Assembly (NCBI GenBank): GCA_964386715.1
Contig: CAYLTD010000006.1
Coordinates: forward strand, 3,518-67,517
DNA from: an uncultured Bifidobacterium sp.
GTDB taxonomy: Bacteria; Acidobacteriota; Vicinamibacteria; Vicinamibacterales; CAVVIG01
DNA length: 64,000 nt
Direction of reading: 5' to 3'
Below are positions 26,849 through 45,285 of the stretch, piece by piece; position 1 is the stretch's first letter; the number at the start of each line of letters is the position of its first letter. Made by a program: the position numbers and the translations under genes. The notes under the pieces were generated by a model. That model saw only the letters and a program-made list of their open reading frames with translations. It did no database searches and was not told where the DNA came from.

Positions 26849-27304
26849 CTAGGACACCAGCTTGTCGAGCGTCTTGCCGAGCGCGCGGAGTTCCTCAGCC
26901 GAGAGCGGTGCGAGCACCTCGGCCTGGAACTGCGCCAGCCCGGGGTCGATTGTCTCCAGCACGCGCAGGCCCTTCGCGGTAATGCGTGCGACGGAGTGCC
27001 GCCGGTTGTCGGGCGACCAGCCCCGCTCGATGAGGTGTTCCCGCTCGAGGCGGTCGAGGATGCGAGTGACGTCCGGCGCCCGGCGTATGAGGCGACTGGC
27101 AATCTCGAATCTCGGATGGCCCGCCGGCGCGCCGCGCAGGATGCGAAGCACGTTGTATTGGGTGTGCGTGATGCCCTGCGCGCCGCACAGCTCGTCCAGG
27201 CGCTGATTCAGCCGTTCGGCCACGACGAGCAGGCCGACGAAGGCGGACTCGAGCGAGTTCCTGAACCGGGGCTGCTGCAGCCGCTCCTGTAGGTGCTTCT
27301 CCAT
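26849..27304 (-). CDS. MarR family transcriptional regulator
   Basis: Winged-helix region (THTQYNVLRIL...RLIRRAPDVTRILDRLEREHLIER). The ATG at 27304 is preferred over the GTG at 27334. Confidence 0.85.
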   Translation of the reverse strand: MEKHLQERLQQPRFRNSLESAFVGLLVVAERLNQRLDELCGAQGITHTQYNVLRILRGAPAGHPRFEIASRLIRRAPDVTRILDRLEREHLIERGWSPDNRRHSVARITAKGLRVLETIDPGLAQFQAEVLAPLSAEELRALGKTLDKLVS

Positions 27305-27317
27305 AATGACCACGACA

Positions 27318-27338
27318 ATATGTGTTTCAAACACACGT
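27318..27338. promoter_or_regulatory. candidate MarR operator 2 (marR / divergent operon control region)
   Basis: ATATGTGTTTCAAACACACGT contains the perfect 7-1-7 inverted repeat TGTGTTT-c-AAACACA (27321-27335), 17 nt upstream of the marR ATG. Confidence 0.45.
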
Positions 27339-27443
27339 TGTCAAGCCCCACCTGCAGGCCACATCGTCCCATGCCGCGGATCCCGGCGGTATGAGCTCCG
27401 TCCGGGGCTGTCACGTTTCCGCCCCCTCGTTCGTCATCCGATC

Positions 27444-27845
27444 ATGAACACGACACGCACACAGATCCGCTGGCTCGTCGGGATCGTTCTTGCGCACCTT
27501 GCGGTGTCGCTCGTCCACGGCGCGGCGCACACCGGCGCCCATGTGCCGCTCGGCCCCGCGGCCCACCTCTTTGTCGTCACCGTCATCCTGACAGGTCCAC
27601 TGGTGGGCATCGCGGCGATCCGTATGGCACGCCGCGTCGCCGCCCTGCTCGTCGCCGCCACCATGACTGGCGCGCTGCTCTTCGGAATCCTGAGTCACTT
27701 CGTTCTCGGGAGTCCCGACCACGTTGCGCAGGTCGACGTCGAATGGCGGCCGCTCTTCGCGGTGACGGCTGGCTTGCTGGCTGTCACCGAGGCACTGGGC
27801 GCCGGGCTCGCCATTCGCCTGTCGCGGCAGGAGCCGCTGTCATGA
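27444..27845 (+). CDS. small integral membrane protein, unknown function
   Basis: Four predicted TM helices. It is divergent from marR, and its stop overlaps the next start. Confidence 0.5.
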   Translation: MNTTRTQIRWLVGIVLAHLAVSLVHGAAHTGAHVPLGPAAHLFVVTVILTGPLVGIAAIRMARRVAALLVAATMTGALLFGILSHFVLGSPDHVAQVDVEWRPLFAVTAGLLAVTEALGAGLAIRLSRQEPLS

Positions 27846-28747
27846 AGGTCCTGGTTGCCGGAGGCACAGGAACGATCGGTCTTCCGCTGGTGCACGCGCT
27901 CGTCAGCAGCGGCCATCAGGTAACGGCGCTGTCCCGCTCGAAGACCCGCCATGCCCAGCTTCGCGACGCCGGGGCGACGGCGCTTGCGGTGGACGCACTC
28001 GATCCGAGTGCGATTCGCGCGGCGGTCGTTGAATCACGTCCGACACACGTCATCCACCAGCTGACGGCACTGCCGAAGGAGGGGCCGAAGCACAGCCGCG
28101 ACATCGAGGCGACGAATCGCCTGAGGATCGACGGGACCCGGAACCTGATCGAGGCATCCATTCAGGCCGGCGTCCAACGGCTCATCGTGGGATCCTTTGC
28201 GATACTGGCGCATGCCGCGGATGCCGGGGCGCAGGCCTCTGCGGCGGCCGACGCGGTCGCGTCGATGGAGCGGCAGGTTCTGGATGCGTCCGCGCGTGGC
28301 GCTCTCGAGGGGATCGTGCTCCGATACGGGATGTTCTACGGCAGCCAGGTGCCGTCCACGCAGGCACTCGTCGCCATGGTTCACCGTCGCCGCATGCCTG
28401 TCATCCGCAACGATGCGGGCCAGCTGCCGTTCGTGCACATCGACGATGCCGTGAACGCCACGGTACGCGCGCTCGACCGGGGGGCCCCTGGCACCGTGGT
28501 GGACGTCGTGGACGACCGGGCGGTCAGTTTCGCCGAATTCGTCGGGGCCATCGCTGCTGCCACAGGGGCGCCGAAACCACTCCGCGTGCCGGGCTGGGTC
28601 GCGCGGCTGCTGGCACCCGCGATGGCGAGGATGCTCGCGGTGCAGTTGCCCCTGGCGAACACCACGGCGCGAACCGAGCTCGGCTGGCGGCCAAACTACC
28701 CGACTATCGCCCACGGATTGACAGGGATGCTGAGGACGGCGGCGTAA
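27842..28747 (+). CDS. NAD(P)-dependent epimerase/dehydratase family (SDR) protein
   Basis: MKVLVAGGTGTIG Rossmann motif. ATGA overlap with the upstream gene. Confidence 0.8.
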   Translation: MKVLVAGGTGTIGLPLVHALVSSGHQVTALSRSKTRHAQLRDAGATALAVDALDPSAIRAAVVESRPTHVIHQLTALPKEGPKHSRDIEATNRLRIDGTRNLIEASIQAGVQRLIVGSFAILAHAADAGAQASAAADAVASMERQVLDASARGALEGIVLRYGMFYGSQVPSTQALVAMVHRRRMPVIRNDAGQLPFVHIDDAVNATVRALDRGAPGTVVDVVDDRAVSFAEFVGAIAAATGAPKPLRVPGWVARLLAPAMARMLAVQLPLANTTARTELGWRPNYPTIAHGLTGMLRTAA

Positions 28748-28749
28748 CC

Positions 28750-29643
28750 ATGGCTGACGACGTGTTCACCCGGGATCGGTCCCGGCTGTTCTCGATCGCG
28801 TACCGCATGCTGGGCAGCGCGTCCGATGCCGAGGACGTTCTCCAGGACGGCTGGTTGCGGTACCAGCGAGCGGACCATGCGACGATACGCTCGCCTGAGG
28901 CGTTTGCCACCACGATCGTCACGCGGCTGTGTCTCGATCGGCTGAAGTCCACGCGCGCGACCCGTGAGGAGTACATCGGTCCGTGGCTGCCCGAGCCGGT
29001 GCTGACGGCGGAGATCCAGACGCCGCAGGTGGCGGTCGAACGGGCCGAGTCGGTGACGCTGGCGTTCCTCGTGCTCCTGGAGACCCTCTCGGCGGAAGAG
29101 CGCGCGGTGTTCCTGCTGAAGGACGTGTTCGAGTACGACCACGCGGACATCGCACGCATGCTGGGGGTGTCGGCCGACAACTCGCGCCAGCTGCTGCATC
29201 GCGCCAAGGCCAGGCTTGCCGACAGGCGGCCCCGGCTGTCAGGGTCCGCGGAGTCACGCCGCGCGGCGGCAGAGCGCTTCGCGCGCGCGTTCGCGACCGG
29301 CGACGAGGCCGCGCTCACGGCGCTGCTGGCACCCGACGTGGGCATGTGGAGTGACGGCGGCGGCAAGGTGACCGCTGCGCGGCGTCCGTTGCGCGGCCGC
29401 GATCAGGTGAGGACCTTCCTGGTTGGCCTGCATCGCACGGCCCTGGCCGCAGGTCTGGCGAGCGACGTGTCGCTCTGGGTCGAGGACGTCAACTCGGAGC
29501 CCGCGGTCGTCATCCGCGTCGGTTCCCGGATCGAGGCGATCTTCGTGATGTCAATCGAGGAGCACGCCGTGACCGCCATCCGCGCCGTCCGAAATCCCGA
29601 CAAGCTCGCCCGGATTCAGCGGCAACTCTCGAAGCGCCACTGA
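28750..29643 (+). CDS. ECF-type RNA polymerase sigma-70 factor with SnoaL-like C-terminal extension (SigJ-like)
   Basis: Region 2 (LFSIAYRMLGSASDAEDVLQDGWLR), region 4 (VFLLKDVFEYDHADIARMLGVS) and a ~120-aa C-terminal domain. Confidence 0.85.
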   Translation: MADDVFTRDRSRLFSIAYRMLGSASDAEDVLQDGWLRYQRADHATIRSPEAFATTIVTRLCLDRLKSTRATREEYIGPWLPEPVLTAEIQTPQVAVERAESVTLAFLVLLETLSAEERAVFLLKDVFEYDHADIARMLGVSADNSRQLLHRAKARLADRRPRLSGSAESRRAAAERFARAFATGDEAALTALLAPDVGMWSDGGGKVTAARRPLRGRDQVRTFLVGLHRTALAAGLASDVSLWVEDVNSEPAVVIRVGSRIEAIFVMSIEEHAVTAIRAVRNPDKLARIQRQLSKRH

Positions 29644-29781
29644 CCGGGCCTGCGGGCGCGCCTCGTGAACCTGGCATGTCCAGCAACCGCGTCGGTGGTG
29701 CGACGAGATGCCTTCCACATCGCGCGCGGGTGGTTGTACGCTGGCCTCGCGATCGCCAGGCCTCCACACAGGATCTTCGCC

Positions 29782-30819
29782 ATGCCGTCCAGACGCGCCT
29801 TCCTGCACGCCGCCCTCGTGACGCCCGCGCTGACCCTTGCGGCGCGGGCCCAGCAGCCGGCCGTCCCACCGTCGCCGGTGCGGGACTGGTCCGGCCAGGC
29901 GCCGGTCCGCTACCCGGATCCGGATATCGTGGCCCTCGACCCGCGCTTCCGGCGCTACATGCTCGGCAACACGCCGATCCAGCGGCTGCACACCGGCACG
30001 CTGTGGGCGGAGGGGCCCGCGTGGAACGGCGTCGGCCGGTTCCTCGTCTGGAGCGACATTCCGAACAACCTTCAACTGCGCTGGGTGGAAGACGACGGGC
30101 GCGTGACCGTCTTCAGGAACCCCTCGGGCAACAGCAACGGCAACACCTTCGACCGCGAGGGACGGCAGCTCTCCTGCGAGCACGGGGGGCGAAGGGTGGT
30201 GCGCTACGAGCACGACGGCCGCGTGACGGTCATTGCCGAACGGTACCAGGGTAAGCGGCTGAACTCCCCGAACGATGCGGTGGCACACCAGGACGGCAGC
30301 ATCTGGTTCACGGATCCGATCTACGGCATCCGCGGCAACTATGAAGGCAACCGCGCGGAGTCAGAAATCCGGCCCGGCGTCTACCGCGCCGACCCGCAGT
30401 CGGGCCAAGTCTCGCTGATGACCGATGAACTGGGCGGACCCAACGGCCTCTGCTTCTCGCCCGACTACTCGCGGCTGTACGTGGCGGACACCGGCACCGG
30501 GCGAAGTCTGCGCGTCTTCGACGTCGACGGCGCGCGCGTCCGCAATCATCGGCAGCACGCCACGCTGACGGTCCCAGGCACGAACGAGCCCGCGGCGGCC
30601 GACGGCATCCGGAGCGACGTCGATGGCAACGTCTGGGCCGGGGCACGCCCCGGCGTGCAGGTCATCGCGCCGGACGGCGCCACCATCGGGATGATCCGGC
30701 TGCCCGAGAACTGCGCCAACGTGGCGTTCGGTGGGCGGAAGCGCAACCGTCTGTTCATGACGGCCAGCCAGTCGCTCTATGCCGTCTACGTGGACACCCA
30801 GGGCGCCGGGTTCGCCTGA
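29782..30819 (+). CDS. SMP-30/gluconolactonase/LRE family protein with Tat-type signal
   Basis: MPSRRAFLHAAL... signal. EGPAW, SNDIP, NSPND and PNGLCFSPD motifs of the six-bladed propeller. Confidence 0.85.
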   Translation: MPSRRAFLHAALVTPALTLAARAQQPAVPPSPVRDWSGQAPVRYPDPDIVALDPRFRRYMLGNTPIQRLHTGTLWAEGPAWNGVGRFLVWSDIPNNLQLRWVEDDGRVTVFRNPSGNSNGNTFDREGRQLSCEHGGRRVVRYEHDGRVTVIAERYQGKRLNSPNDAVAHQDGSIWFTDPIYGIRGNYEGNRAESEIRPGVYRADPQSGQVSLMTDELGGPNGLCFSPDYSRLYVADTGTGRSLRVFDVDGARVRNHRQHATLTVPGTNEPAAADGIRSDVDGNVWAGARPGVQVIAPDGATIGMIRLPENCANVAFGGRKRNRLFMTASQSLYAVYVDTQGAGFA

Positions 30820-31025: not shown

Positions 31026-31059
31026 AAGGGCCGGCAGTGCATGCACACTGCCGGCCCTT
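31026..31059 (-). terminator. intrinsic terminator hairpin (possibly bidirectional) between convergent genes
   Basis: AAGGGCCGGCAGTG-catgca-CACTGCCGGCCCTT is a perfect 14-bp stem. On the minus strand it is followed by TTTCTCG, 67 nt downstream of the radical-SAM stop. Confidence 0.65.
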
Positions 31060-31126: not shown

Positions 31127-33223
31127 CTACGCCTGCGGCTTGTCGTGCAGGACCTCCTGGACGTCCTGCTTCTTCTTGCCGCCGAGCCCCTGGATCTGGA
31201 TGGTCGGCTGCTCCTTGAGCACGTGCTGCGCGTAGAGCTTGGCCATCTCGGCGTGGTACTTCGGGTCGTGCTCCTTCTTGCGGGCCTGGAGCTTCTCCTC
31301 ACGGGCGTTCTTCGCGATGCCGAGCTCGTCGAGATCGGTCTGCGCGCCCTTGGCCACCGCTTCGGCGTTCAGCACCAGCGAGTGCTCGGTCGAGGCCAGC
31401 GGCACCTTCTTGTTGCCGGCGAAGATCTCGTGACGGCCGTGCTCCTCGTACCACTTGGTGAGGGTGGCCGTCATGTGCATCTTCTCGATGATGTTGCGCC
31501 AGCCGATGCCGGTGTTGTAGGCGCAGAACGAGATCTCGCCCTGCTGCGTGGCATACGGGATGATGCACATCTCGGTGCGGCGGAAGTCGTAGTTGAACAG
31601 ATCCTGGAACCACATGCCCGCGATGAATAGGAAGTTCCAGCGGTCCGAGCGCCGCTTCGCGATGTCGTCCTTGGTGATGTTTCCGCTGGTCTTGCCGTAC
31701 TTGCCCTTTTCGGCCGCCTTGGTTGCGCCGAAGGTCTTGTCGAACTTCTTCAGCAGGTCGCCGATCTTGAAGTGCGTCGGCGCCTTGAACGGGTCGTAAT
31801 TCCGCATCAGGGCGAGGGCCATGCCCAGCACCGAGAGGCTGCGGCTCCGGCCGCCGTCAGTGACCGCCGCCACGTCCTTGGCGAGCTGCTCGGCATTGAG
31901 GAACGCGGTGACCGGCACGGCCTCCTTCGTTTCCTTGTCGATCATCACGGCCATGCCGACGCCGCAGTTCGGGTGGCAGCCGCACGTGAGCTGACCCCAG
32001 TCCTTGTCTGGGCCGTGGACGACGTCCGCCCAGTCGGTGAAGGTGGACATGAACGAGATCGGGAACCAGTCGCGGGTGGGCTCGCCCAGGCCGGTCTGGT
32101 TCTTCACGTCGTGCGCGAGGTGCGACAGGGTGTAGCGCTGCGCGGCCCGCCGCTCGGGCGTGACCTCCTCGTCTCGGCCGGTGAACGACACCGGCTGGAA
32201 CGAGAGGAAGTTGATCTTCTTCGGGTTGTCGAGCGCGAACTCGACCACGCGGCCGACCTGCTCGTTGTTCACGCCATTGACGATCGTGATGACCGGGACG
32301 ATGTCGACGCCGGCGCTGTGCAGGTTCTCGATCGCGCGCAGCTTGACGTCGAACAGGTTGCCCACGCGCCGGTGCGAGTTGGCGGCGTTGCCGATGCCGT
32401 CGAACTGCAGGTACGCGTAGCGCAGGCCGGCCTCGGCAGCCGCCTTCGCGAACTCCGGATCCTTGGCGAACTCGATGCCGTTGGTCGCCGCCTGCACGCT
32501 GGCGTAGCCGACCTTGCGTGCATAGCGGACCGCGTCCAGGAAGTACGGCGAAATCGTGGGCTCACCACCCGAGAACTGCACCGACATCTGCCGCTTCGGC
32601 TTGATGCTGATCGCGTTGTCGAGCACCTGCTTGATGTCGTCCCAGGTCAGCTCGTGCACGAACCCAACCTGGTTCGCGTCCATGAAGCAGGGGTCGCACA
32701 TCATGTTGCAGCGGTTGGTGAGGTCCACGGTGAGCACCGAGCCCCGGCCGTGCAGGATGGTGCTGCTGCCGTGGTTGTGCAGCTTCTCGTCGTTGTGCGC
32801 GCGGATGTCACGACCCGGGAACACCTGCTCGAGGTGCTTGAAGAACTCCGTGTCGATCGCCATCACGTCCTCGAAATGGCCGTGGATCGGGCAGTCCTTC
32901 ACCATCAGGATCTTGCCGTCGCGCTCGAGGATCGTGGCCTTGATCTCGCCGACCTTGTCGTTGAGCAGGACGCTGACATCCTTCTTGCCGTCGAGAATCT
33001 CCTGGCGCGCCTCCCGGACGCACACCGGGCACAGCGAATCGGTCTCACGCGGCCAGCCGAGCGGCGGCTTGCTCTTCTGATACGACTTCTGCAGCGGCTT
33101 GTCCGACCACTTCGGAGTGAACGACGGGCGCTGATTCACCTTGTTCAGCGCGTTGAACACCACCCAGGCGCCGTTCGCGGCGTAGGACAGCCCTTTCTCG
33201 AAGTACTTGATGGGCGCGTGCAT
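31127..33223 (-). CDS. radical SAM protein, Tes/GDGT-MAS (MJ0619)-family-like putative membrane-spanning-lipid synthase
   Basis: CNMMCDPC (Cx3Cx2C, 32687-32710), N-terminal CPVC...CPIHGH ribbon, extra Cys clusters (CGCHPNC) and an AGGAGA SD. The family assignment is from memory of the family layout and was not searched. Confidence 0.7.
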   Translation of the reverse strand: MHAPIKYFEKGLSYAANGAWVVFNALNKVNQRPSFTPKWSDKPLQKSYQKSKPPLGWPRETDSLCPVCVREARQEILDGKKDVSVLLNDKVGEIKATILERDGKILMVKDCPIHGHFEDVMAIDTEFFKHLEQVFPGRDIRAHNDEKLHNHGSSTILHGRGSVLTVDLTNRCNMMCDPCFMDANQVGFVHELTWDDIKQVLDNAISIKPKRQMSVQFSGGEPTISPYFLDAVRYARKVGYASVQAATNGIEFAKDPEFAKAAAEAGLRYAYLQFDGIGNAANSHRRVGNLFDVKLRAIENLHSAGVDIVPVITIVNGVNNEQVGRVVEFALDNPKKINFLSFQPVSFTGRDEEVTPERRAAQRYTLSHLAHDVKNQTGLGEPTRDWFPISFMSTFTDWADVVHGPDKDWGQLTCGCHPNCGVGMAVMIDKETKEAVPVTAFLNAEQLAKDVAAVTDGGRSRSLSVLGMALALMRNYDPFKAPTHFKIGDLLKKFDKTFGATKAAEKGKYGKTSGNITKDDIAKRRSDRWNFLFIAGMWFQDLFNYDFRRTEMCIIPYATQQGEISFCAYNTGIGWRNIIEKMHMTATLTKWYEEHGRHEIFAGNKKVPLASTEHSLVLNAEAVAKGAQTDLDELGIAKNAREEKLQARKKEHDPKYHAEMAKLYAQHVLKEQPTIQIQGLGGKKKQDVQEVLHDKPQA

Positions 33224-33456
33224 TCGTGTCGTCTCCTGTAAATGACGAGGTGTCGGGTCGACGGACCCTGAATTGCCGTAAATCATAGACCGGAAAAGGC
33301 TTGGCATACATCGCTTATCGGCGAGCTGGCGTACGGCGGGGCTGAGTGGGCAGATCGCCCGGTTGAGAGGGCAGCGGCGGCTCCAACGGCCGGGCTGCCT
33401 TCCCGGTGCACGGCGCTTCCGGGTGGCCCGACCGGGTGCCCCCCGCCAGCGACATC

Positions 33457-33462
33457 TACAAT
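33457..33462 (+). promoter_or_regulatory. -10 box TACAAT; predicted leaderless ypdA-like gene
   Basis: TACAAT-caggct-ATG(33469). Confidence 0.5.
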
Positions 33463-33468
33463 CAGGCT

Positions 33469-34464
33469 ATGGCCCTCCACGACCTCCTCATCATCGGCGC
33501 CGGCCCCGCAGGCCTGGCGGTCGCCATCGCGGCGGCAGAAGCCGGCGTCGATTACGTGGTGGTGGAGAAGGGCGTCCTGGTGAACTCCATCTTCAACTTC
33601 CCGCCGGGTATGACCTTCTTCACCACCCCCGACCTGCTCGAGATCGGACGCCTGCCCTTCGTCACGCCCTACGAGAAGCCAACGCGAGGCGAGGCGCTCC
33701 GCTACTACCGGCGGGTGGCCGACACCTATCGCCTGCGCATCGTGTTTGGCGAGGAGGTGCTCGGCATTACACGCGAGGAAATCGAGGGGCGCACGCAGTT
33801 CGTGGTGGATTCACGGTCCGACAGAGGAGTGCGGCAGGGTCGCCGCGCGCGAGCCGTGGTCTTCGCCGTCGGGTACTACGACCAGCCAAACCGCCTCGGC
33901 ATTCCCGGGGAGGACTTCCCGCACGTCGCGCACTACTACGGCGACCCGCACGAACACTACCGCCGGAACGTGCTCGTCGTCGGCGGCAAGAACTCGGCGG
34001 CCATTGCCTCGCTCGAGCTGTACCGCGCCGGCGCGTCTGTCACGCTGGTCCACCGGGGCCAGACGCTCTCGGACCGCATCAAGTACTGGATCCGTCCGGA
34101 CATCGAGAACCGGATCAAGGAAGGATCCGTCATCGCCTACTTCCAGGCCTGCGTCACCGAGATCCGCCCGACCTCGGCGCTCGTGCGGCTCGCCTCGGAC
34201 GACGTGCGCGAGGTCCCCGCTGACGCGGTCCTGCTGCTCACCGGCTATCACCCCGACTTCGCCCTGCTCACCGGAGCCGGCGTTGCGCTCGGACCCCGCC
34301 GCGAGCCGGTGTTCGACCCGGAAACCATGGAGACCAACGTCCCCGGCGTCTTCGTGGCGGGCGGCCTCGTGGGCGGCCTCGACACCGGGGCGATCTTCAT
34401 CGAGAATGGCCGGTTTCACGGCGAGCAGATCGTGAAGCGGCTCCGATACATCCTCTCCAGCTGA
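33469..34464 (+). CDS. ypdA: YpdA-family FAD/NAD(P)-dependent oxidoreductase (putative bacillithiol-disulfide reductase type)
   Basis: DLLIIGAGPAGLAVA...VNSIFNFPPGMTFFTTPDLLEIG..PF...KPTRGEALRYYRRV closely follows the YpdA N-terminal pattern. Confidence 0.75.
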   Translation: MALHDLLIIGAGPAGLAVAIAAAEAGVDYVVVEKGVLVNSIFNFPPGMTFFTTPDLLEIGRLPFVTPYEKPTRGEALRYYRRVADTYRLRIVFGEEVLGITREEIEGRTQFVVDSRSDRGVRQGRRARAVVFAVGYYDQPNRLGIPGEDFPHVAHYYGDPHEHYRRNVLVVGGKNSAAIASLELYRAGASVTLVHRGQTLSDRIKYWIRPDIENRIKEGSVIAYFQACVTEIRPTSALVRLASDDVREVPADAVLLLTGYHPDFALLTGAGVALGPRREPVFDPETMETNVPGVFVAGGLVGGLDTGAIFIENGRFHGEQIVKRLRYILSS

Positions 34465-34579: not shown

Positions 34580-34924
34580 TCACCGCCGATCGTTGCGCCG
34601 GTCCTCCCGCCGATCGCGCCGGTCTTCGCGGCGGTCCCGTGTATCTTCCGCCCGGTCGCGCCGGTCTTCATGCCGGTCGCGCACGTCCTCGCGCCGGTCT
34701 CGAGCGCCGCCGTCGTGGCGGGCGTCCCATCGATCTTCGCGGCGGTCACGTACGTCCTCGCGGCGGTCGCGTCGGTCCTCGCGTGCGTCGCGTGCGTCTT
34801 CGCGGCGATCGCGCCTGTCCTCGATCCGGTCGCGCCTGTCGCGATTGGTGGACGCCGGCGCCTGCGCCAGTACCGGTGCGCTCACCATCGCCAGCAGTGC
34901 AATCGTGCTGAATGTCCTGAACAT
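34580..34924 (-). CDS. exported low-complexity protein composed of RDRRED-type charged heptads
   Basis: GGAGGAG SD and Sec signal MFRTFSTIALLAMVSAPVLAQA. The remaining ~87 aa are almost exclusively R, D and E. Confidence 0.55.
   Translation of the reverse strand: MFRTFSTIALLAMVSAPVLAQAPASTNRDRRDRIEDRRDRREDARDAREDRRDRREDVRDRREDRWDARHDGGARDRREDVRDRHEDRRDRAEDTRDRREDRRDRREDRRNDRR
34583..34843 (-). repeat. imperfect ~21-bp tandem repeat encoding (R-D-R-R-E-D-x)n
   Basis: About 11-12 degenerate heptad units can be read in the translated ORF. The same periodicity creates spurious Arg/Ser ORFs on the opposite strand. Confidence 0.7.
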
Positions 34925-35194
34925 GCGGCTCCTCCGTCGCTGAGTTCCCCGCATCGGCCCGACCGCCGGACCGCTGCGCTGCGAGGCGGATGAGCAAGCG
35001 CTGCGCCGGAGAGCGGCGCAGGTCTGTGACAGGTCTGTGACATCGACGGGCTGGCCCACACGAGTGTCGGGGAGCAGCTGGCCCCGGCGCAGGTGAGGGT
35101 CGCCTCGGCGGGCCTCGTGAACACGGCGCCACGGCGCCGGCTTGCCGCGGTTCTCGTGCTGATCCCGGTGGTAGGATCCGTGTGGCATTGTTCA

Positions 35195-39021: not shown

Positions 39022-42000
39022 TCACGGGCCAGCGGTCACCGTCAGGCTGACTGTGGCCTGGGTGCTGTCGAGGGGCGTCACGCCACTCGCTTCCCGGGCG
39101 ACGTAGGTGAAGCTGTCCACGCCGACGAACCCGGCAGCTGGCCGGTAGATGAACCCGCCTTCCGGGGTCAGCGTGAGCGTGCCGTTCGCCGTGGGCGAAG
39201 CGAGCACCGCGATAAGCGGATCGTTCTCGACGTCGGTGTCGTTGGCCAGGACGCCGCCATACGACGACGCGGCGTACACGGCCTGCAGCTCCGTGATGGT
39301 CAAGGCGCGGTTGAAGAGCAGCACCTGGTCGACGCTGCCAACCAGCGACGCGCCAGGCACGAGAAGCGTGGTCGCCCGCGCACCGATGAGCACGGGTTCT
39401 CCGGGCGTCAGAACCGGCGTGCCGGTGGTGGTGATGACAGCGCACCCGTCCTGCACGCCGTCGAGGTACACGCACAGCGTCCTGGTGCTGTCGTCATACA
39501 CGCCTGCCACGTTGTGCCACGTGCCGCCGCTCACGGTGGACGCACCGCCGACGACGCACGTGCCGCCCTCGTCGCACGCCACGTAGGCGCTGCTGTCCCA
39601 GTACGCCGGCGTGAGCGAACCGCTCGCTGCGGCATCGGTGAATGCCACGCCCAGCTGGACCCTGCCGCCCTGCACCTGGAGCCGGTAGTTCGTCAGCGTG
39701 CCGTCCTTGCTGACGACGGTGTTCTCCGCGTACCGGTCGGTCAGGTTGACCCAGGCGCCGATCGAGAAGCTGCCCGGCTGGGCGAGCGAGGGGCCATCCG
39801 GGATGGACACAGCGCTCGACCCGTCGAGCACGAAGGCCTGGCCGTACTTGCCCGCGCCGTAGCTCACGCTTCCGAGGGCGGACCCGTCGTTCGTGCCCTT
39901 GCTGTCCTGTGCATTCCCGTCACCGCGCCACCAGCCCGTGAGCCCGGCGGGCGGTCCGGCCACGACGACATCGGAGGCGCCGACGTAGGACCAGTTGAGG
40001 ATGTCGGCATTCTCGACTGCGCCACCGGTGCCGGCCGTGAAGCCGACGAAGGCGTCCGAGCCACCCAGGGTGCTCGGGATGTCGATCGCGTAGGCGAGGG
40101 TCGCGTCCGCCGGACGCTCCGATGTCCGACTCAGGCGCACGGCAAGCGTTGCGCCGTCGTACTCCACCCAGGCGTACCAGAGCGCTCCGTCCTTGAGCGA
40201 TCCGAGCGGAGAGACGTCGGCGGTCTGCACCGAGACCATCGAGCCGTTGACGTCCACGCCGATGTGGTTGTCGTTCGGATCGTAGAAGTTGGGGAACGTG
40301 TCGAACTCCACGGCCACGCTCGGCGAGATCTTCGCACCCTGGCAGGGGGTCTCGACGCCGCACAGGCTCGGGTCCGGGAACTCGCCGAGCCCGAGGTTCT
40401 CGCCGCGCGCGCCGAGCTGTGTTGGCCCGACCGGCTGCAGCACGAAGGCGAACCCGTCGCCTCCGCCTTCCGAGGGCGCGAGCCTGAAGGTGAAGGCGGT
40501 GGAGAACCGTGTGACGTTGCGGGTCAGCGACGTGAACGCGCTGCCCCGCTGGCCGAAGTCTGCCGGAACGACCCGCAGCACCGTTCCGTCCGTCGTCGTC
40601 ACGGCCGCAGCCGGTCCGTTGAGCGTCAGTCCGTCGGTGGATGCGAAATCGGCGAAGGACACGGGCGGGCCGACCCTCGTGGCGTAGCTGTCGTCCGTGG
40701 GGACCGGGGGATCGTTCACCGGCGTGACGTCGATCGTGACCGTCGCCGGGGTGCTGGTGATCGCCGCCGCGCAGAGCGTCGCCACCGCGCCGCAGTTGTC
40801 CGGATCGCCCCTGTCCGTGATGGTGAACACGAAGCTGTCGGGGCCGAAGTAGTTGGCGTCGGGCGTGTAGGCCAGGTTCGGCAGCGTGCCCGTGAGCGTG
40901 CCGTGCTGCGGAGGCGTGGTGATCTGGAACGTCAAGGTCGCACCGGACGTTTCCAGGTCGGAGCCCGACAACGTCAGTGGCACCGGCGTGGCGCATGAAG
41001 CCGCCGGCGAGCTGCTGCAGTCCTCGAACAGCGTCAGGACCTGCGGCGTGGCGGTGGGCGGGTCGTTGACCGGCAGCACCGTCACCGTGACGGTCGCCGC
41101 CCCGCTGGGGAGCGCGCCCGCACAGCCCTGCGGTGGGGGCGCCCCTGCCGCGCAGGAGTCCGGGTCGCCGCGATCGGTCACCGTGAAGGTGAACGTATCC
41201 ACGCCGTTCCAGTTTGCGGCCGGCGTGTAGGTGGCGGTCCGCCCGGACAGGAGCAGCGTTCCGCCCGCCGGTGACGTGCCCACGGCATAGGCGAGGTCGT
41301 CGGGACTGATGGTCTCGACGTCAGCGCCCGACAGCGTCATCACCACCGCGCCGCTGTCCTCCGTGATGGTGATCGGGTCCGGCGCGATGGCCGTCGGCTG
41401 GTCGTTCACCGCGCGCACCGTGATCGTGAACGTGACGGGCGGCGTGCTCGTGTCGATCCCGCCGAAGGCCGTGCCGCCGTTGTCCCGAATCTGCACCGTC
41501 ACGGTCGCGACGCCGTTGGCATTCGGTGCCGGCGTGTAGGTGAGCACGCCGGACGGCGAGATCGCCGGTTGCCCGGCGCCCGCCGTGAACAGCCCGCTGT
41601 TGTTGTTCGAGACGAGGAAGGCCAGCACCTGTCCGCACACCGACGGCACCGCACCAGGTTCGGCACATGAGGTGCCGTCCGTCTCGTTGAGCGGTCCGGC
41701 GCTGAGGACCGAGGCCCACCCCACTGAGCGAGTTCCCGAGTCTTCATCCACCGAATCGTTTCCGCCTGCAACGAACGACGGCACGTCATTGACGGGGTTC
41801 ACGGTGATGGTCACCTTCGCCACGTTCGAATCCGGGCTGAGCGGGGTGACCCCGTTCCACAGGGGCGCCTTGATCTTGTAGGTGAACGACACCGTGCCGT
41901 AGTAGTTGCCGGCTGGCGCGAAGGTGAACGACCCGTTGTCGTTCAGCACCAGGATGCCGGCCGACGGATTGGAGAGACCGGTGACCAGCAACACGCCGGC

Positions 42001-45000: not shown

Positions 45001-45285
45001 CTCTCTGATGATCGACGAGCCCGTGATGGTTTCCCAGTAGAGGAACGCCGCGATGATGTCCGCATTGGCCGGTACGCCCGTCATCGGGATGTTGCCCGTG
45101 ACGAAGGCCGAACTCCCGGCTGCCTTCGGCAGGTCCACGCCCCCGACGGCGTAGTTGCCCGTCAGCAGATAGCTCTTCGAGAACGGCAGCGCGTCCCTGA
45201 GCGGCGCCTGCGCCTGGCCGCCCGTCCAGGCGAACGCGAACGCGAGGGCCACGGCGAGCAGGGCGGCACGAGCCGTGACACGCAT
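39022..45285 (-). CDS. giant secreted multidomain surface protein (metzincin-like module, GGGID[F/Y] array, cadherin/Ig-like repeats, legume-type lectin, LamG)
   Basis: Signal MRVTARAALLAVALAFAFAWTGGQAQA. HELGHNLELWH at 43396-43428. Repeats ending in VNDxP/NDTD. Lectin signature VAVEFDTFPN..DPNDNHIGVDVN at ~39985-40665. LamG-like region at ~39300-39945. An alternative upstream ATG at 45375 has a GAGG SD. Confidence 0.8.
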   Translation of the reverse strand: MRVTARAALLAVALAFAFAWTGGQAQAPLRDALPFSKSYLLTGNYAVGGVDLPKAAGSSAFVTGNIPMTGVPANADIIAAFLYWETITGSSIIREQADGVTFRGQPVTTVKASRVRPTPATASCFSAGPQPTLTMYRADVLRLLPLQLDTNGKPTGKRLVNDTDLARAGLPLHSVKLPDAPPSTNAVPVSAGASLFVVYRDPSQPLTQIVLYDGAYLEPPNAVTSQELRGFFQSSSTHVAKLTHIVASGRQNKTDRVWFNNLRSNAPTLLGGDKFVNTGQGGNSDRGWSNPTFDVTAQLPGRDAAPGGGGFGEEVVTTIDHTNSSQYDCLAWAAIAFSTTVKDVDNDGIPDRIEDATGTLRQPNWEPLPNLKAMGASSRHKDIFVEVGAMTADPGTAYGSAAAPVNATTARVVDAAGHSHLPKPEVFRMLGEAYRNAPVSNPDNTPGINIHFDVGDYRGLPGYGADTPARDYLVDPAYARGGETMRETACTTAGGAPCQFPDFPGTVSFQIGYQILRDAPVGPAGQELNAADQDACEAPGRASNPCRRRFDHERQGLFHYLLYAHARGIPKSTDPNSPDYHVPKSSSGVSTLPGGNLMVTLGLWDNFVGTSFAQASTTMHELGHNLELWHGGAPATYTANPNGRVTVKYEPNCKPNIPSVMSYLYQTHGLLDYTNQQVLDYGRGQRPTLTEGALRDAGMPGEGAIYRAAWFVPLVPGSLAANLGLTPAKKYCNGATFPNPLPAGWVPTARFDGPMSGVIDWNTTGLDPGGLMSQDVNFDGSLSPLTGFNEWANVRLNQMGATPNMAGFSAGIDFGGGIDYGGGIDFGGGIDFGGGIDFSGGIDFGGGIDYGGGIDYGGGIDYGGGIDYGGGIDFGGGIDFGGGIDFGGGIDFGGGIDFGGGIDFGGGIDFGGGQEIDYETSSALSHTPPNRLTVCVIGTPGCVQASTTPPIAPLHRNLLRWEVPNVGGDQVTSYAVYRITGTAINATTTAAKVLVGRTPNGSTFSLVDQEELPNGVEFTYWAIAEFTSAADVSSPSNFVTVTAVNDAASAIPPFNAQASANDDFYSVNEDTPLLSVSAATGVLLNDTDPDSPKPAAGVLLVTGLSNPSAGILVLNDNGSFTFAPAGNYYGTVSFTYKIKAPLWNGVTPLSPDSNVAKVTITVNPVNDVPSFVAGGNDSVDEDSGTRSVGWASVLSAGPLNETDGTSCAEPGAVPSVCGQVLAFLVSNNNSGLFTAGAGQPAISPSGVLTYTPAPNANGVATVTVQIRDNGGTAFGGIDTSTPPVTFTITVRAVNDQPTAIAPDPITITEDSGAVVMTLSGADVETISPDDLAYAVGTSPAGGTLLLSGRTATYTPAANWNGVDTFTFTVTDRGDPDSCAAGAPPPQGCAGALPSGAATVTVTVLPVNDPPTATPQVLTLFEDCSSSPAASCATPVPLTLSGSDLETSGATLTFQITTPPQHGTLTGTLPNLAYTPDANYFGPDSFVFTITDRGDPDNCGAVATLCAAAITSTPATVTIDVTPVNDPPVPTDDSYATRVGPPVSFADFASTDGLTLNGPAAAVTTTDGTVLRVVPADFGQRGSAFTSLTRNVTRFSTAFTFRLAPSEGGGDGFAFVLQPVGPTQLGARGENLGLGEFPDPSLCGVETPCQGAKISPSVAVEFDTFPNFYDPNDNHIGVDVNGSMVSVQTADVSPLGSLKDGALWYAWVEYDGATLAVRLSRTSERPADATLAYAIDIPSTLGGSDAFVGFTAGTGGAVENADILNWSYVGASDVVVAGPPAGLTGWWRGDGNAQDSKGTNDGSALGSVSYGAGKYGQAFVLDGSSAVSIPDGPSLAQPGSFSIGAWVNLTDRYAENTVVSKDGTLTNYRLQVQGGRVQLGVAFTDAAASGSLTPAYWDSSAYVACDEGGTCVVGGASTVSGGTWHNVAGVYDDSTRTLCVYLDGVQDGCAVITTTGTPVLTPGEPVLIGARATTLLVPGASLVGSVDQVLLFNRALTITELQAVYAASSYGGVLANDTDVENDPLIAVLASPTANGTLTLTPEGGFIYRPAAGFVGVDSFTYVAREASGVTPLDSTQATVSLTVTAGP
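42532..42858 (-). repeat. 18-bp tandem repeat, 17 near-identical units plus 1 degenerate unit, encoding G-G-G-I-D-[F/Y]
   Basis: Units such as gccgccgccgaaatcgat, gccgccgccgaagtcgat and gccgccgccgtagtcgat are read directly, in frame within the giant ORF. Confidence 0.9.

What the first reader, a model, noticed from the sequence alone, without database searches (positions are those of the whole stretch)
31127..34464. Bacterial Tes/GDGT-MAS-like radical-SAM enzyme (candidate membrane-spanning-lipid synthase) divergently paired with a YpdA-like flavoprotein
The 698-aa ORF carries the radical-SAM Cx3Cx2C motif (CNMMCDPC, 32687-32710). It is preceded by an N-terminal CPVC...(~40 aa)...CPIHGH ribbon and followed by further Cys clusters (CGCHPNC, FCAYN).

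This is the arrangement I associate with the MJ0619/Tes (GDGT-MAS) family, which forms the C-C bonds of archaeal tetraether lipids. Bacterial homologues have been proposed as candidates for branched GDGT or other membrane-spanning lipids but, to my knowledge, remain biochemically uncharacterised.

Several features of the gene stand out:
- It is about 200 aa longer than the archaeal enzymes as I remember them, with a Lys-rich C-terminal tail.
- By eye it is strikingly Lys-rich in an otherwise Arg-rich proteome, which may indicate foreign origin or strong constraint.
- It has its own strong SD and a perfect 14-bp terminator.
- It shares a 245-bp divergent control region with a leaderless ypdA-like pyridine-nucleotide-disulfide oxidoreductase gene, a conceivable reductant or thiol-redox partner.
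Basis: partly seen in the sequence, partly recalled or inferred. Interest (0 to 1): 0.7.

Follow-up and report, generated by a model that had tools for sequence, protein, structure and literature searches.

The report
Acidobacterial Tes-like lipid-coupling radical-SAM enzyme
A soil acidobacterium (Vicinamibacterales) carries a distinctive, extremely conserved relative of the archaeal enzyme that welds two lipid tails into membrane-spanning lipids; it is a strong but untested candidate for the unknown enzyme behind the acidobacterial lipids used as palaeoclimate proxies, and its pairing with the neighbouring ypdA gene is incidental.

Summary
Window 31127-33223 (-) encodes a 698-aa radical-SAM protein with every motif at the stated coordinates, a strong SD, a 14/15-bp hairpin and a 245-bp divergent spacer to a true YpdA-family gene.

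The protein belongs to the Tes/GDGT-MAS fold family: 34% identity to MJ0619, and an AF2 model with TM 0.86-0.88 to 7TOL/7TOM. It keeps the rubredoxin-like Fe site, the SAM cluster, SAM-binding residues, Tyr459 and the catalytic C-terminal [4Fe-4S] (3 Cys + Met).

It is not an orthodox Tes. It lacks the N-terminal auxiliary [4Fe-4S] motif, scores 318 against NCBIfam's 450-bit cutoff, and falls in a separate N-cluster-less clade.

That clade is 75-93% identical to the window protein across Vicinamibacterales, Bryobacterales, Terriglobales and Blastocatellia. These are the subdivisions (1, 3, 4, 6) that make iso-diabolic acid and in which no Mss was found.

Lys-richness is a conserved family trait, not foreign origin. 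The ypdA pairing is not conserved: adjacent in 2 of 85 loci. Vicinamibacterales copies instead carry LytTR-type phased repeats upstream.

Most likely function: tail-to-tail C-C coupling of iso-C15 chains. This is inferred, not shown. The general idea was published in 2022; the distinct subfamily appears undescribed.

The parts
31127..33223 (-). Tes-like radical-SAM gene (698 aa, stop codon included). It belongs to the N-cluster-less acidobacterial clade of the Tes/GDGT-MAS family.
   Evidence: ORF and translation. Pfam Radical_SAM plus Zn_ribbon_HMPTM. NF045702 score 318 bits, below the 450 cutoff. PDB hit 7TOL, E 6e-67. AF2 model pLDDT 82.5; Foldseek 7TOL/7TOM TM 0.86-0.88.
33032..33223 (-). 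Clade-specific N-terminal extension (aa 1-64): a predicted helix at 3-29, then the conserved linker ...PPLGWPRETDSL. Lys 12.5%.
   Evidence: Canonical homologues vary here and lack this sequence. Conserved at 0.69-0.85 across 78 orthologues. Helix pLDDT 86-95. Lys content.
32882..33031 (-). Rubredoxin-like Fe site: C65-X2-C68-X42-C111-X2-H114. In MJ0619 the same site is C9-X2-C12-X20-C33-X2-H36.
   Evidence: Residue mapping. C111 and H114 are invariant, and C65 and C68 are at least 90% conserved, in 79 diverse homologues. A 42-residue spacer occurs only in this clade.
32753..32785 (-). Segment that replaces the [4Fe-4S]N motif CPxxCGxCxxH (aa 147-157, KLHNHGSSTIL). No cysteines remain.
   Evidence: Mj C73/C77/C80/H83 align to K147/H151/S154/L157. 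All 64 canonical homologues in the alignment have the motif; all members of this clade and of the P0135 clade lack it.
32687..32710 (-). Radical-SAM cluster motif CNMMCDPC (C172, C176, C179), followed by F180.
   Evidence: Coordinates. Invariant in the 79- and 88-sequence alignments.
31523..31984 (-). C-terminal auxiliary-cluster domain. The ligand equivalents are C420, C553, C567 and M537 (Mj C338, C455, C470, Met439), plus Y557 (Mj Tyr459). C414 and C416 are additional cysteines, fixed in this clade and its sister; C416 also occurs in many canonical homologues.
   Evidence: Mapping and column counts. C420, M537, C553, Y557 and C567 are invariant in A5. Ligand identities in MJ0619 from PMC9433317.
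31130..31453 (-). C-terminal extension (aa 591-698), Lys 13%. Predicted helices at 620-669 have low confidence, and the last 23 aa are variable.
   Evidence: 117-139 aa follow the FCAYN motif here; canonical homologues have mostly 15-65 aa (typically about 30), and one long-form subgroup has 84-119 aa. Conservation is 0.60-0.74 for aa 601-675 and 0.38 for the final 23. pLDDT is below 50 at 630-639 and 667-698.
33233..33237 (-). Shine-Dalgarno AGGAG, 9 nt upstream of the ATG.
   Evidence: Read directly from the sequence.
33282..33287 (-). Conserved -10-like box TATGAT, within TCTATGATTTACGG. It predicts a leader of about 52 nt.
   Evidence: Aligned across Vicinamibacterales loci. In L002 and L003 the orthologue's ATG lies 6-7 nt after this box, a leaderless arrangement that fixes it as the promoter element.
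33321..33372 (-). Three phased 10-nt direct repeats with a 21-bp period: GCCCTCTCAA, GCCCACTCAG, GCCAGCTCGC. The architecture is that of a LytTR response-regulator site.
   Evidence: The IUPAC pair is unique in the 64-kb window, with 0 expected. It is positionally homologous to GCCCGTTCGC repeats in 15 of 26 Vicinamibacterales-type loci, against 6 of 1160 control windows. The window copy is degenerate: 6 mismatches to the consensus pair. LytTR site rule from PMC4847170. The cognate LytS-type HK and LytTR RR are adjacent in L001 and L002 and absent from this window.
31026..31059 (-). Perfect 14-bp GC-rich hairpin (15 pairs as folded) between the convergent Tes-like and gluconolactonase-like genes. 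Probably a terminator, but it has a weak U-tract.
   Evidence: Sequence. Fold -36.7 kcal/mol, z = -5.7. Not called by the consensus terminator scan.
33469..34464 (+). ypdA-family flavoprotein (331 aa), a divergent neighbour. It is listed for completeness and is not part of a conserved unit with the Tes-like gene.
   Evidence: TIGR04018 score 397 bits against a 340 cutoff; Pyr_redox_3. TACAAT at 33457-33462. The pairing is not conserved.

Best explanation
The gene encodes a peripheral-membrane radical-SAM enzyme of the Tes/GDGT-MAS family. It most likely joins the terminal (omega) carbons of two iso-branched C15 chains of membrane glycerolipids. The product would be the C30 iso-diabolic-acid skeleton of acidobacterial membrane-spanning lipids, which is also the alkyl skeleton of brGDGTs.

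Inferred mechanism, by homology to MJ0619:
1. The C172/C176/C179 cluster reductively cleaves SAM.
2. The 5'-deoxyadenosyl radical abstracts H from a terminal methyl group held in a hydrophobic tunnel.
3. The substrate radical is parked on a sulfide of the C-terminal [4Fe-4S] cluster (C420, C553, C567, labile M537).
4. A second SAM generates the radical on the second chain, which attacks to form the C-C bond.

Electrons would enter through the retained rubredoxin-like Fe site, because the surface [4Fe-4S]N relay of canonical Tes is absent. The Lys-rich N- and C-terminal extensions plausibly dock the enzyme on anionic membranes.

In Vicinamibacterales the gene has its own promoter preceded by LytTR-type repeats, so expression is probably controlled by a LytS/LytTR two-component system.

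Shown here: family, fold, retained and lost metal ligands, conservation, distribution, absence of an operon, and the cis-element. Inferred: substrate, product, electron path, membrane docking and regulator.
For: 1. Family and fold. BLASTP gives 34% identity to MJ0619 (3e-73). phmmer to 7TOL gives 6e-67. The AF2 model (pLDDT 82.5, pTM 0.85) matches only GDGT-MAS over the full architecture, at TM 0.86-0.88, with the next hit at 0.53.

2. Catalytic apparatus retained. RS cysteines, F180, R286, Q343 and R350 (the SAM-binding equivalents) are present. C420, C553, C567 and M537 correspond to the [4Fe-4S]C that forms the substrate C-S intermediate, and Y557 corresponds to Tyr459. All are invariant or nearly so in 79-88 homologues (roles from PMC9433317).

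3. Distribution. At least 592 family hits were found in GTDB species genomes. The best 80 are almost all labelled Acidobacteriota and span Vicinamibacterales, Bryobacterales/Solibacter, Terriglobales (including cultured Acidipila rosea DSM 103428) and Blastocatellia, at 74-89% identity. The literature places iso-diabolic acid in subdivisions 1, 3, 4 and 6, finds no Mss in these acidobacteria, and calls the enzyme unknown (PMC13159169, PMC10087280).

4. Constraint. Median pairwise identity across classes is 77%, and residues 526-600 are 97% conserved. GC3 of 0.947 would fit a highly expressed native gene.

5. MJ0619 binds ester-linked phosphatidic acid from E. coli (PMC9433317), so ester lipids fit this fold.

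6. The Lys-rich extensions are clade-specific.
Against: - No biochemical or genetic data exist for any bacterial Tes homologue (PMC11868695, PMC13459092).
- Tes homology alone does not guarantee activity. MA_1114 gave only traces of product, and Halobacteria with homologues make no GDGT (PMC8941075).
- S. usitatus Ellin6076 makes brGDGTs but no detectable iso-diabolic acid (PMC10087280). A MAG labelled Ca. Solibacter usitatus carries this orthologue. Product and gene therefore do not map one-to-one, unless the enzyme accepts ether lipids.
- Some Acidobacteria also have a canonical Tes (591 bits) next to an rSAM-SPASM gene. That enzyme could be the real coupling enzyme in those organisms.
- No lipid gene is a conserved neighbour.
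- Absence from the non-producing classes (Holophagae, Thermoanaerobaculia) could not be tested.
- Loss of the [4Fe-4S]N cluster might signal different chemistry.
- Many hosts are aerobes, and the analogous Mss worked only anaerobically (PMC13159169).
Confidence: 0.5

Rival explanations
1. The enzyme performs a different radical modification of a hydrophobic or lipid substrate, while the canonical Tes paralogue or an unknown enzyme does the tail-to-tail coupling. Candidates include intrachain cross-linking, macrocyclisation within one lipid, cyclopentane formation or C-S chemistry.
For: - It forms a deeply separated clade that lacks one cofactor and falls below the Tes equivalog cutoff.
- Canonical Tes coexists in Terriglobia in an operon-like pair with an rSAM-SPASM gene.
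- S. usitatus was picked as a brGDGT producer through its canonical homologue, which is 40% identical to MA_1486 (bioRxiv 10.1101/2022.04.07.487437).
- MA_1114 shows functional divergence within the family (PMC8941075).
Against: - The residues tied to the coupling mechanism are all retained: [4Fe-4S]C with its labile Met, Tyr459 and the SAM site.
- Canonical Tes homologues appear to be patchy among iso-diabolic-acid producers. Only 3 of 14 genomes had any Tes homologue under strict criteria (PMC13159169), whereas this clade spans all four producing subdivisions.
Confidence: 0.25
2. It acts on a non-lipid substrate, for example a cofactor or a peptide. MJ0619 was originally annotated this way, as a pterin methylase, and the related TrsS family is of unknown function.
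For: - JGI still names many members '7,8-dihydro-6-hydroxymethylpterin dimethyltransferase'.
- The second-best NCBIfam hit is TrsS, at 212 bits.
- There is no lipid gene context.
Against: - The pterin-methylase annotation of MJ0619 was not reproducible and was displaced by the lipid-bound structure (PMC9433317).
- The whole-protein fold match is to GDGT-MAS, including the C-terminal lipid-pocket domain.
- The Tes score (318) exceeds the TrsS score (212).
- There is no adjacent precursor peptide or cofactor operon.
Confidence: 0.1
3. The Tes-like enzyme and YpdA form a functional redox pair: YpdA supplies electrons or maintains thiols for the radical-SAM enzyme, under a shared divergent control region.
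For: - The two genes are divergently adjacent here, with a 245-bp spacer, and in L007.
- ypdA lies within 8 kb in 9 Vicinamibacterales-type loci.
- Loss of the [4Fe-4S]N relay could call for a different reductant.
Against: - ypdA is absent within 8 kb in 76 of 85 loci, including every Bryobacterales, Terriglobales and Blastocatellia locus.
- In L001 a two-component system is inserted between the two genes, and ypdA sits beside egtB/egtD-like genes.
- The conserved promoter and repeats upstream of the Tes-like gene occur whether or not ypdA is present.
- YpdA meets the bacillithiol-disulfide-reductase family cutoff, which points to a general thiol-redox role.
Confidence: 0.05
4. The gene is a recent horizontal acquisition, with Lys-richness as a foreign signature.
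For: - K/(K+R) is 0.63 against 0.05-0.26 in neighbouring genes.
- GC1 and GC2 are lower than in neighbours.
Against: - GC3 of 0.947 is native or higher.
- Lys content is 6.5-8.2% in sampled orthologues whatever the locus GC, from 0.52 to 0.68.
- In the NJ tree the Vicinamibacterales copies group together, apart from those of the other classes.
- The gene sits in a partly syntenic Vicinamibacterales neighbourhood.
Confidence: 0.03

Closest known systems
GDGT-MAS / Tes of Methanocaldococcus jannaschii (MJ0619; PDB 7TOL, 7TOM)
   Same: - Overall multi-domain fold, with TM 0.86-0.88.
- Rubredoxin-like 3Cys+His Fe site and RS CX3CX2C motif.
- SAM-binding residues.
- C-terminal [4Fe-4S] with 3 Cys plus a labile Met.
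- The conserved active-site Tyr.
   Different: - 34% identity.
- No [4Fe-4S]N cluster ligands.
- Rubredoxin spacer of 42 residues rather than 20.
- A 64-aa conserved N-terminal extension and a roughly 100-aa Lys-rich C-terminal extension.
- Cysteines C414 and C416, which MJ0619 lacks.
- A bacterial host with iso-branched fatty-acyl lipids rather than phytanyl diethers.
Canonical bacterial Tes homologues (NCBIfam NF045702 members, e.g. Terriglobia P0291; the Koribacter and Solibacter homologues of Zeng et al. 2022)
   Same: - Same family.
- Also found in Acidobacteriota.
- Also proposed, and also untested, for brGDGT synthesis.
   Different: - Only 35% identical to the window protein.
- They keep the CPxxCGLCxxH N-cluster motif and are about 540 aa.
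- P0291, the member tested, scores 591 bits against 318 for the window protein.
- In the two Terriglobia contigs examined they precede an rSAM-SPASM gene.
- The window clade is stand-alone and far more conserved.
Mss, the membrane-spanning lipid synthase of Thermotoga maritima and Thermoanaerobacter ethanolicus (Sahonero-Canavesi et al. 2022)
   Same: - The proposed reaction type is the same: radical-SAM tail-to-tail coupling of fatty-acyl chains to diabolic or iso-diabolic acids.
   Different: - It is a different radical-SAM lineage. The authors found no Tes homologue in those organisms and no Mss in iso-diabolic-acid-producing Acidobacteria (PMC13159169).
- Mss is reported only from anaerobes.
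- No sequence comparison was run here, because no Mss sequence was available.
TrsS radical SAM (seleno)protein (NCBIfam NF045646)
   Same: - It is the second-best family model, at 212 bits, and shares the Tes-like core.
   Different: - The score is well below the 490-bit cutoff and below the Tes score.
- There is no selenocysteine context here.
LytS/LytTR (BtsS/BtsR-, LytSR-type) two-component regulation
   Same: - The upstream element consists of 10-nt direct repeats with 11-nt spacers, as described for LytTR regulators (PMC4847170).
- A PF06580 kinase and a LytTR regulator sit directly upstream of the orthologue in several loci.
- The regulator's best model is BtsR, at 146 bits.
   Different: - The regulator is below the BtsR cutoff of 246 bits.
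- The kinase is a short, roughly 350-aa form with about 4 N-terminal TM segments.
- The signal and the DNA binding are unknown.
- No such gene pair lies in this window.

Membership tests
Tes / GDGT-MAS (tetraether lipid synthase) | Radical-SAM CX3CX2C cluster and SAM-binding residues (Mj C98/C102/C105, F106, R210, Q268, R275) | tested here: met
   The window equivalents are C172/C176/C179, F180, R286, Q343 and R350. All are invariant or nearly invariant.
Tes / GDGT-MAS (tetraether lipid synthase) | N-terminal rubredoxin-like mononuclear Fe site, C-X2-C...C-X2-H | tested here: met
   C65, C68, C111 and H114 are present, and the protein hits Pfam PF23545. The spacer is 42 residues rather than 20.
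Tes / GDGT-MAS (tetraether lipid synthase) | N-terminal auxiliary [4Fe-4S]N cluster (Mj C73, C77, C80 and a conserved His) | tested here: not met
   The ligands are replaced by K147, H151, S154 and L157. The motif is present in 64 of 64 canonical homologues in the alignment and absent from this whole clade.
Tes / GDGT-MAS (tetraether lipid synthase) | C-terminal auxiliary [4Fe-4S]C cluster with 3 Cys plus labile Met439, and the conserved Tyr459 | tested here: met
   C420, C553, C567, M537 and Y557 are all invariant in A5.
Tes / GDGT-MAS (tetraether lipid synthase) | Overall multi-domain fold with a C-terminal lipid-pocket domain | tested here: met
   Foldseek matches to 7TOL and 7TOM give TM 0.86-0.88 (target-normalised) at E about 1e-35.
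Tes / GDGT-MAS (tetraether lipid synthase) | NCBIfam NF045702 equivalog score of at least 450 bits | tested here: not met
   The window protein scores 317.6 bits and the A. rosea orthologue 333. The canonical Terriglobia Tes scores 591.
Tes / GDGT-MAS (tetraether lipid synthase) | Catalyses Csp3-Csp3 coupling of two lipid tail termini | not testable with these tools
   This needs lipidomics after heterologous expression, or an in vitro assay.
Mss (bacterial membrane-spanning lipid synthase) | Sequence homology to the T. maritima or T. ethanolicus Mss | not tested
The literature reports no Mss homologues in iso-diabolic-acid-producing Acidobacteria (PMC13159169).
YpdA family (putative bacillithiol disulfide reductase), for the neighbouring gene | TIGR04018 score of at least 339.9 bits and a Pyr_redox_3 architecture | tested here: met
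   397.4 bits on TIGR04018; PF13738 at 1.6e-76.
Conserved Tes-like/ypdA gene pair | Adjacency conserved across genomes that carry the Tes-like gene | tested here: not met
   The two genes are adjacent in 2 of 85 loci, and within 8 kb in 9 of 85.
LytTR-regulated promoter | Two or more 9-11-nt repeats separated by 11-13 nt upstream of the promoter, with a cognate LytTR regulator | tested here: inconclusive
   The architecture is met: three repeats with a 21-bp period, conserved in 15 of 26 related loci against 0.5% of control windows. The window's copies are degenerate, the regulator gene is not in the window, and binding is untested.

The most novel reading that the evidence does not exclude
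The most novel reading is that this N-cluster-less, roughly 700-aa clade is the long-sought acidobacterial iso-diabolic-acid (membrane-spanning-lipid) synthase. On this reading it is a streamlined two-[4Fe-4S]-plus-rubredoxin version of Tes that works on ester-linked (and possibly ether-linked) iso-C15 lipids in largely aerobic soil bacteria. It would then be the primary enzymatic source of the brGDGT carbon skeleton in soils. Genome screens with strict thresholds may have missed it because its identity to archaeal Tes is close to the 30% cut-off. In Vicinamibacterales its expression would be tuned by a membrane-embedded LytS/LytTR sensor.
Probability: 0.4. Interest if true: 0.8.

Novelty: new variant of a known kind. 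Interest (0 to 1): 0.6.

Why it matters
brGDGTs and iso-diabolic acid underpin widely used soil and lake palaeothermometers and pH proxies. The enzyme that couples the two iso-C15 chains in Acidobacteria, the main cultured producers, is still unidentified.

The literature leaves this open. Sahonero-Canavesi et al. (2022) concluded that acidobacteria must use an alternative pathway. Papers from 2025-2026 still call the bacterial Tes homologues unconfirmed.

This analysis defines a single stand-alone gene family that is ultra-conserved in subdivisions 1, 3, 4 and 6 and retains the catalytic cluster of GDGT-MAS. That gives a precise gene to express, delete and use as a marker for source attribution of these biomarkers in metagenomes.

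The natural absence of the [4Fe-4S]N cluster is also a ready-made test of what that cofactor does in Tes, a role its discoverers left unexplained.

Tried and rejected
- **First AF2 run.** An MSA of 45 close homologues (85-95% identical) gave pLDDT 51 and was unusable. Mixing in 64 canonical homologues fixed it.
- **Exact look-up of the window protein in assemblies.** Nothing on record.
- **Naming cultured hosts.** The listing of cluster members returned almost no organism names. The supplement of PMC13159169 (Table S21, which lists the acidobacteria with Tes homologues) is not held. A gene-versus-lipid table for cultured strains could therefore not be built.
- **Non-producing classes.** Absence from Holophagae and Thermoanaerobaculia could not be checked.
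- **RNA and defence searches.** Rfam found nothing in the window, so there is no riboswitch or leader RNA. PADLOC gave only generic radical-SAM similarity to pVip at 43 bits, so a defence role was rejected.
- **Consensus scans.** The promoter/terminator scan found neither the hairpin nor a sigma-70 promoter for either gene.
- **Neighbour clustering.** No conserved partner emerged. Pfam on surrounding genes found no lipid-synthesis genes.
- **Foreign origin.** Considered and rejected on GC3 and on family-wide Lys content.
- **The single 10-nt repeat motif.** On its own it occurs at chance frequency in the window: 15 matches against 15.7 expected. Only the phased arrangement and its positional conservation carry weight.

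Full report

Yes. Window 31127-33223 (- strand) is a 698-aa ORF.
- The ATG at 33223 is preceded by AGGAG at 33233-33237, with 9-nt spacing.
- The N-terminus MHxPIKYxEK is conserved in orthologues from four acidobacterial classes. The longer 726-aa reading is therefore spurious.
- CNMMCDPC maps exactly to 32687-32710.
- The protein has 11 Cys: C65/C68, C111 (CPIHGH), C172/176/179, C414/416/420 (CGCHPNC), C553 and C567 (FCAYN).

A perfect 14-bp hairpin lies 67 nt after the stop codon, at 31026-31059. It folds at -36.7 kcal/mol with z = -5.7. Only a weak U-tract follows, and the consensus terminator scan did not call it.

The spacer to the divergent gene is 245 bp (33224-33468). That gene starts at ATG 33469, with TACAAT 6 nt upstream and no SD. 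A leaderless transcript is plausible but unproven.

The Lys-richness is real: 8.2% K and 4.9% R, against 0.5-3.0% K in seven neighbouring genes. It is concentrated in aa 1-64, 65-122 and 591-698.

**2. Host and context**

The closest proteins, at 85-95% identity, come from Vicinamibacterales (Acidobacteriota subdivision 6) MAGs and soil metagenomes. The window is 65-70% GC.

Neighbouring genes are a MarR regulator, an NAD-epimerase, an ECF sigma factor with a SnoaL-like domain, an SMP-30/gluconolactonase-like protein, a YpdA-family flavoprotein, a Ser/Thr kinase and a giant cadherin/lectin adhesin. No lipid-synthesis gene is among them. Rfam finds nothing in the window.

**3. What the protein is**

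- Pfam gives Radical_SAM plus the MJ0619-type zinc ribbon PF23545.
- The best solved relative is GDGT-MAS (7TOL), at E 6e-67 by phmmer and 34% identity by BLASTP.
- An AF2 model built on a deliberately diversified alignment reached pLDDT 82.5 and pTM 0.85.
- Foldseek against the PDB returns 7TOL/7TOM at TM 0.86-0.88 (target-normalised, E about 1e-35). Next is MoaA at 0.53, which covers only the RS core.

The protein therefore shares the multi-domain architecture of the tetraether synthase, not merely a radical-SAM barrel.

**4. Metal sites, residue by residue**

Ligands of MJ0619 are taken from Lloyd et al. 2022 (PMC9433317). They were mapped through an 88-sequence alignment.

| MJ0619 feature | MJ0619 residues | Window equivalents | Status |
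|---|---|---|---|
| Rubredoxin-like Fe | C9/C12/C33/H36 | C65/C68/C111/H114 | Retained; spacer is 42 residues, not 20 |
| RS cluster | C98/C102/C105 | C172/C176/C179 | Retained |
| SAM contacts | F106/R210/Q268/R275 | F180/R286/Q343/R350 | Retained |
| [4Fe-4S]C | C338/C455/C470 + Met439 | C420/C553/C567 + M537 | Retained |
| Active-site Tyr | Tyr459 | Y557 | Retained |
| [4Fe-4S]N | C73/C77/C80/His | K147/H151/S154/L157 | Lost |

- [4Fe-4S]C is the cluster whose sulfide captures the substrate radical in GDGT-MAS.
- C111, H114, the RS cysteines, C420, M537, C553, Y557 and C567 are invariant in 79 diverse homologues.
- Among the sequences examined, all 64 canonical homologues, archaeal and bacterial, carry CPxxCGLCxxH. 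All members of the window's clade lack it.
- Lloyd et al. state that the roles of the rubredoxin site and the N cluster are unknown. Their loss or retention therefore does not by itself predict chemistry.

**5. A separate, slowly evolving clade**

NCBIfam's Tes equivalog model gives the window protein 318 bits and the Acidipila rosea orthologue 333, against a cutoff of 450. A canonical Terriglobia Tes scores 591.

The window protein is as far from that acidobacterial canonical Tes (35% identity) as from the archaeal enzyme (34%).

In an NJ tree all N-cluster-less proteins form one clade, apart from every canonical Tes including MJ0619. Within that clade the acidobacterial core group has strikingly short branches.

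Clade-specific features:
- a conserved 64-aa N-terminal extension;
- the 42-residue ribbon spacer;
- C414 and C416, both fixed in this clade and its sister; C416 also occurs in many canonical homologues;
- a roughly 100-aa Lys-rich C-terminal extension.

**6. Distribution and conservation**

A scan of one genome per GTDB species found at least 592 family hits. The 80 best, at 74-89% identity over the full length, are almost all labelled Acidobacteriota. They include:
- Vicinamibacterales;
- Bryobacterales, including a Ca. Solibacter usitatus MAG;
- Terriglobales/Acidobacteriaceae, including cultured Acidipila rosea DSM 103428, Edaphobacter and Terracidiphilus;
- Blastocatellia.

Across 78 orthologues the median pairwise identity is 77%, and residues 526-600 are 97% conserved.

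Lys content stays at 6.5-8.2% in sampled orthologues across loci of 52-68% GC, and GC3 here is 0.947. The Lys-richness thus reflects conserved protein composition in a native gene, probably a highly expressed one. It is not a sign of foreign origin.

**7. The ypdA pairing**

The neighbour is a genuine YpdA-family protein (TIGR04018, 397 bits against a 340 cutoff). The pairing, however, is not conserved.
- ypdA lies within 8 kb in 9 of 85 loci, all Vicinamibacterales-type.
- It is directly divergent only in the window and in L007.
- In L001 a two-component system sits between the two genes, and ypdA is flanked by egtB/egtD-like genes.
- Clustering all neighbours showed no family shared by more than 11 of 85 loci.

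The Tes-like gene is in effect a stand-alone gene.

**8. What the control region contains instead**

Alignment of upstream regions from Vicinamibacterales loci reveals a conserved -10-like box, TCTATGATTTACGG (TATGAT = 33282-33287). In L002 and L003 the ATG follows this box by 6-7 nt, a leaderless arrangement. In the window, L001 and L007 a leader of about 52 nt with an SD intervenes.

Upstream lie phased 10-nt direct repeats with the consensus GCCCGTTCGC and a 20-21-bp period.
- The window has three degenerate copies at 33363-33372, 33342-33351 and 33321-33330.
- As an IUPAC pair, the two promoter-proximal repeats are unique in the 64-kb window, with 0 expected.
- 15 of 26 related loci have a near-consensus pair, against 6 of 1160 control windows.
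- The single motif alone occurs at chance frequency.

This is the architecture described for LytTR regulators (PMC4847170). A PF06580 (LytS-type) kinase with about 4 N-terminal TM segments and a LytTR regulator (best model BtsR) lie immediately upstream of the orthologue in L001 and L002, and nearby in L003, L004, L009 and L012. None lies in this window.

The element is absent upstream of subdivision 1, 3 and 4 orthologues.

Inference: in Vicinamibacterales the gene is regulated by a membrane-embedded two-component sensor.

**9. Comparison with the literature**

- Zeng et al. 2022 (PMC8941075) reported 456 bacterial Tes homologues and proposed a role in brGDGT synthesis. They noted a 32%-identical homologue in Edaphobacter aggregans and 40-42%-identical ones in Koribacter and Solibacter.
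- Halamka et al. (PMC10087280) and Chen et al. (bioRxiv 10.1101/2022.04.07.487437) built on this for S. usitatus.
- Sahonero-Canavesi et al. 2022 (PMC13159169) found Mss in anaerobes but none in Acidobacteria. [quoted passage not shown]
- Papers from 2025-2026 still describe bacterial Tes homologues as unconfirmed (PMC11868695, PMC13459092, PMC13274423).
- I found no paper that distinguishes the N-cluster-less clade or characterises it.

What appears to be new:
- two Tes lineages coexist in Acidobacteriota;
- this one is conserved across the four iso-diabolic-acid-producing subdivisions, with a reduced cofactor set;
- its identity to archaeal Tes (about 32-34%) sits close to the 30% threshold used in the earlier screen, which may explain the low count there.

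**10. Most likely function**

Tail-to-tail Csp3-Csp3 coupling of iso-C15 chains, by the GDGT-MAS mechanism. This is inferred from the retained catalytic apparatus and from the match between the gene's distribution and that of iso-diabolic acid (subdivisions 1, 3, 4, 6; PMC13159169). I put it at about 0.5.

The main rival, at about 0.25, is a different lipid-tail modification. In that case the canonical Tes does the coupling in brGDGT-rich species; in the two Terriglobia contigs examined it precedes an rSAM-SPASM gene.

Cautions:
- S. usitatus Ellin6076 makes brGDGT but no iso-diabolic acid.
- Some archaeal Tes paralogues are nearly inactive.
- Absence from non-producing classes could not be tested.
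- No lipid genes are linked to the gene.

**11. Verdict**

- It is a Tes-fold enzyme and a credible candidate for the membrane-spanning-lipid synthase.
- It is a new variant, not an orthodox Tes.
- It is native, not foreign.
- It is not functionally paired with ypdA.

Interest is moderate to high, because the result turns an open biomarker-biosynthesis question into a single-gene experiment.

Noticed in passing
window 33282-33372 (- strand); L001-L027 upstream regions: A conserved promoter-like box (TCTATGATTTACGG) is preceded by phased GCCCGTTCGC-type direct repeats with a 21-bp period, upstream of the Tes-like gene in Vicinamibacterales. The architecture is that of a LytTR site. A LytS-type kinase and a LytTR regulator are adjacent in several loci but absent from this window.
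   Followed up: partly
L002:7877-8000, L003:7700-8000 versus window 33224-33290: The same orthologous gene is leaderless in some Vicinamibacterales: its ATG lies 6-7 nt after the conserved TATGAT box. In the window, L001 and L007 it carries a leader of about 52 nt with an SD.
   Followed up: partly
L085:10001-13409, L087:10001-13366: In Terriglobia MAGs a canonical Tes (591 bits on NF045702, N-cluster present) is followed about 110 nt downstream by a 546-aa radical-SAM/SPASM gene (AhbD/NirJ-like), and is preceded by fatty-acid beta-oxidation genes. This may be a tetraether-modification module, distinct from the stand-alone clade studied here.
   Followed up: partly
P0136 (Terriglobus roseus DSM 18391, WP_014786616.1): This divergent member of the N-cluster-less clade, 40% identical to the window protein, also lacks the cysteines that align with C420, C553 and C567. 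It may be an inactive or repurposed paralogue.
   Followed up: no
L001:4183-7843: In a 93%-identical Vicinamibacterales locus the ypdA homologue sits next to zf-UBP, EgtB-like (DinB_2 + FGE-sulfatase) and EgtD-like (Methyltransf_33) genes. This hints at a link between YpdA and ergothioneine or other low-molecular-weight-thiol metabolism, rather than the radical-SAM enzyme.
   Followed up: no
window 34580-35188 (-), tandem repeats 34595-34834: An ORF with a signal-peptide-like start (MFRTFSTIALLAMVSAPVLAQA) is followed by a highly charged RDRRED-type repeat tract, encoded by 21/42-bp tandem repeats. It has no Pfam hit and did not pass the GC3 coding filter.
   Followed up: partly
window 39022-45375 (-): A 2117-aa protein with Big_9, bacterial cadherin-like, legume-lectin and Laminin_G_3 domains. 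It is probably a giant surface adhesin.
   Followed up: no
window 26849-29643: A cluster comprising a MarR regulator, a small hydrophobic ORF, an NAD-dependent epimerase and an ECF-type sigma factor with a C-terminal SnoaL_2 domain. It lies upstream of an SMP-30/gluconolactonase-like gene (29665-30819).
   Followed up: no
L005, L014, L017, L084 (record titles): Contigs carrying 77-89%-identical copies of this acidobacterial gene are labelled Betaproteobacteria, 'uncultured proteobacterium', Bifidobacteriaceae and Bordetella MAGs. L014 also carries a Vicinamibacterales-type ypdA. This is probably mis-binning or mislabelling rather than transfer.
   Followed up: no
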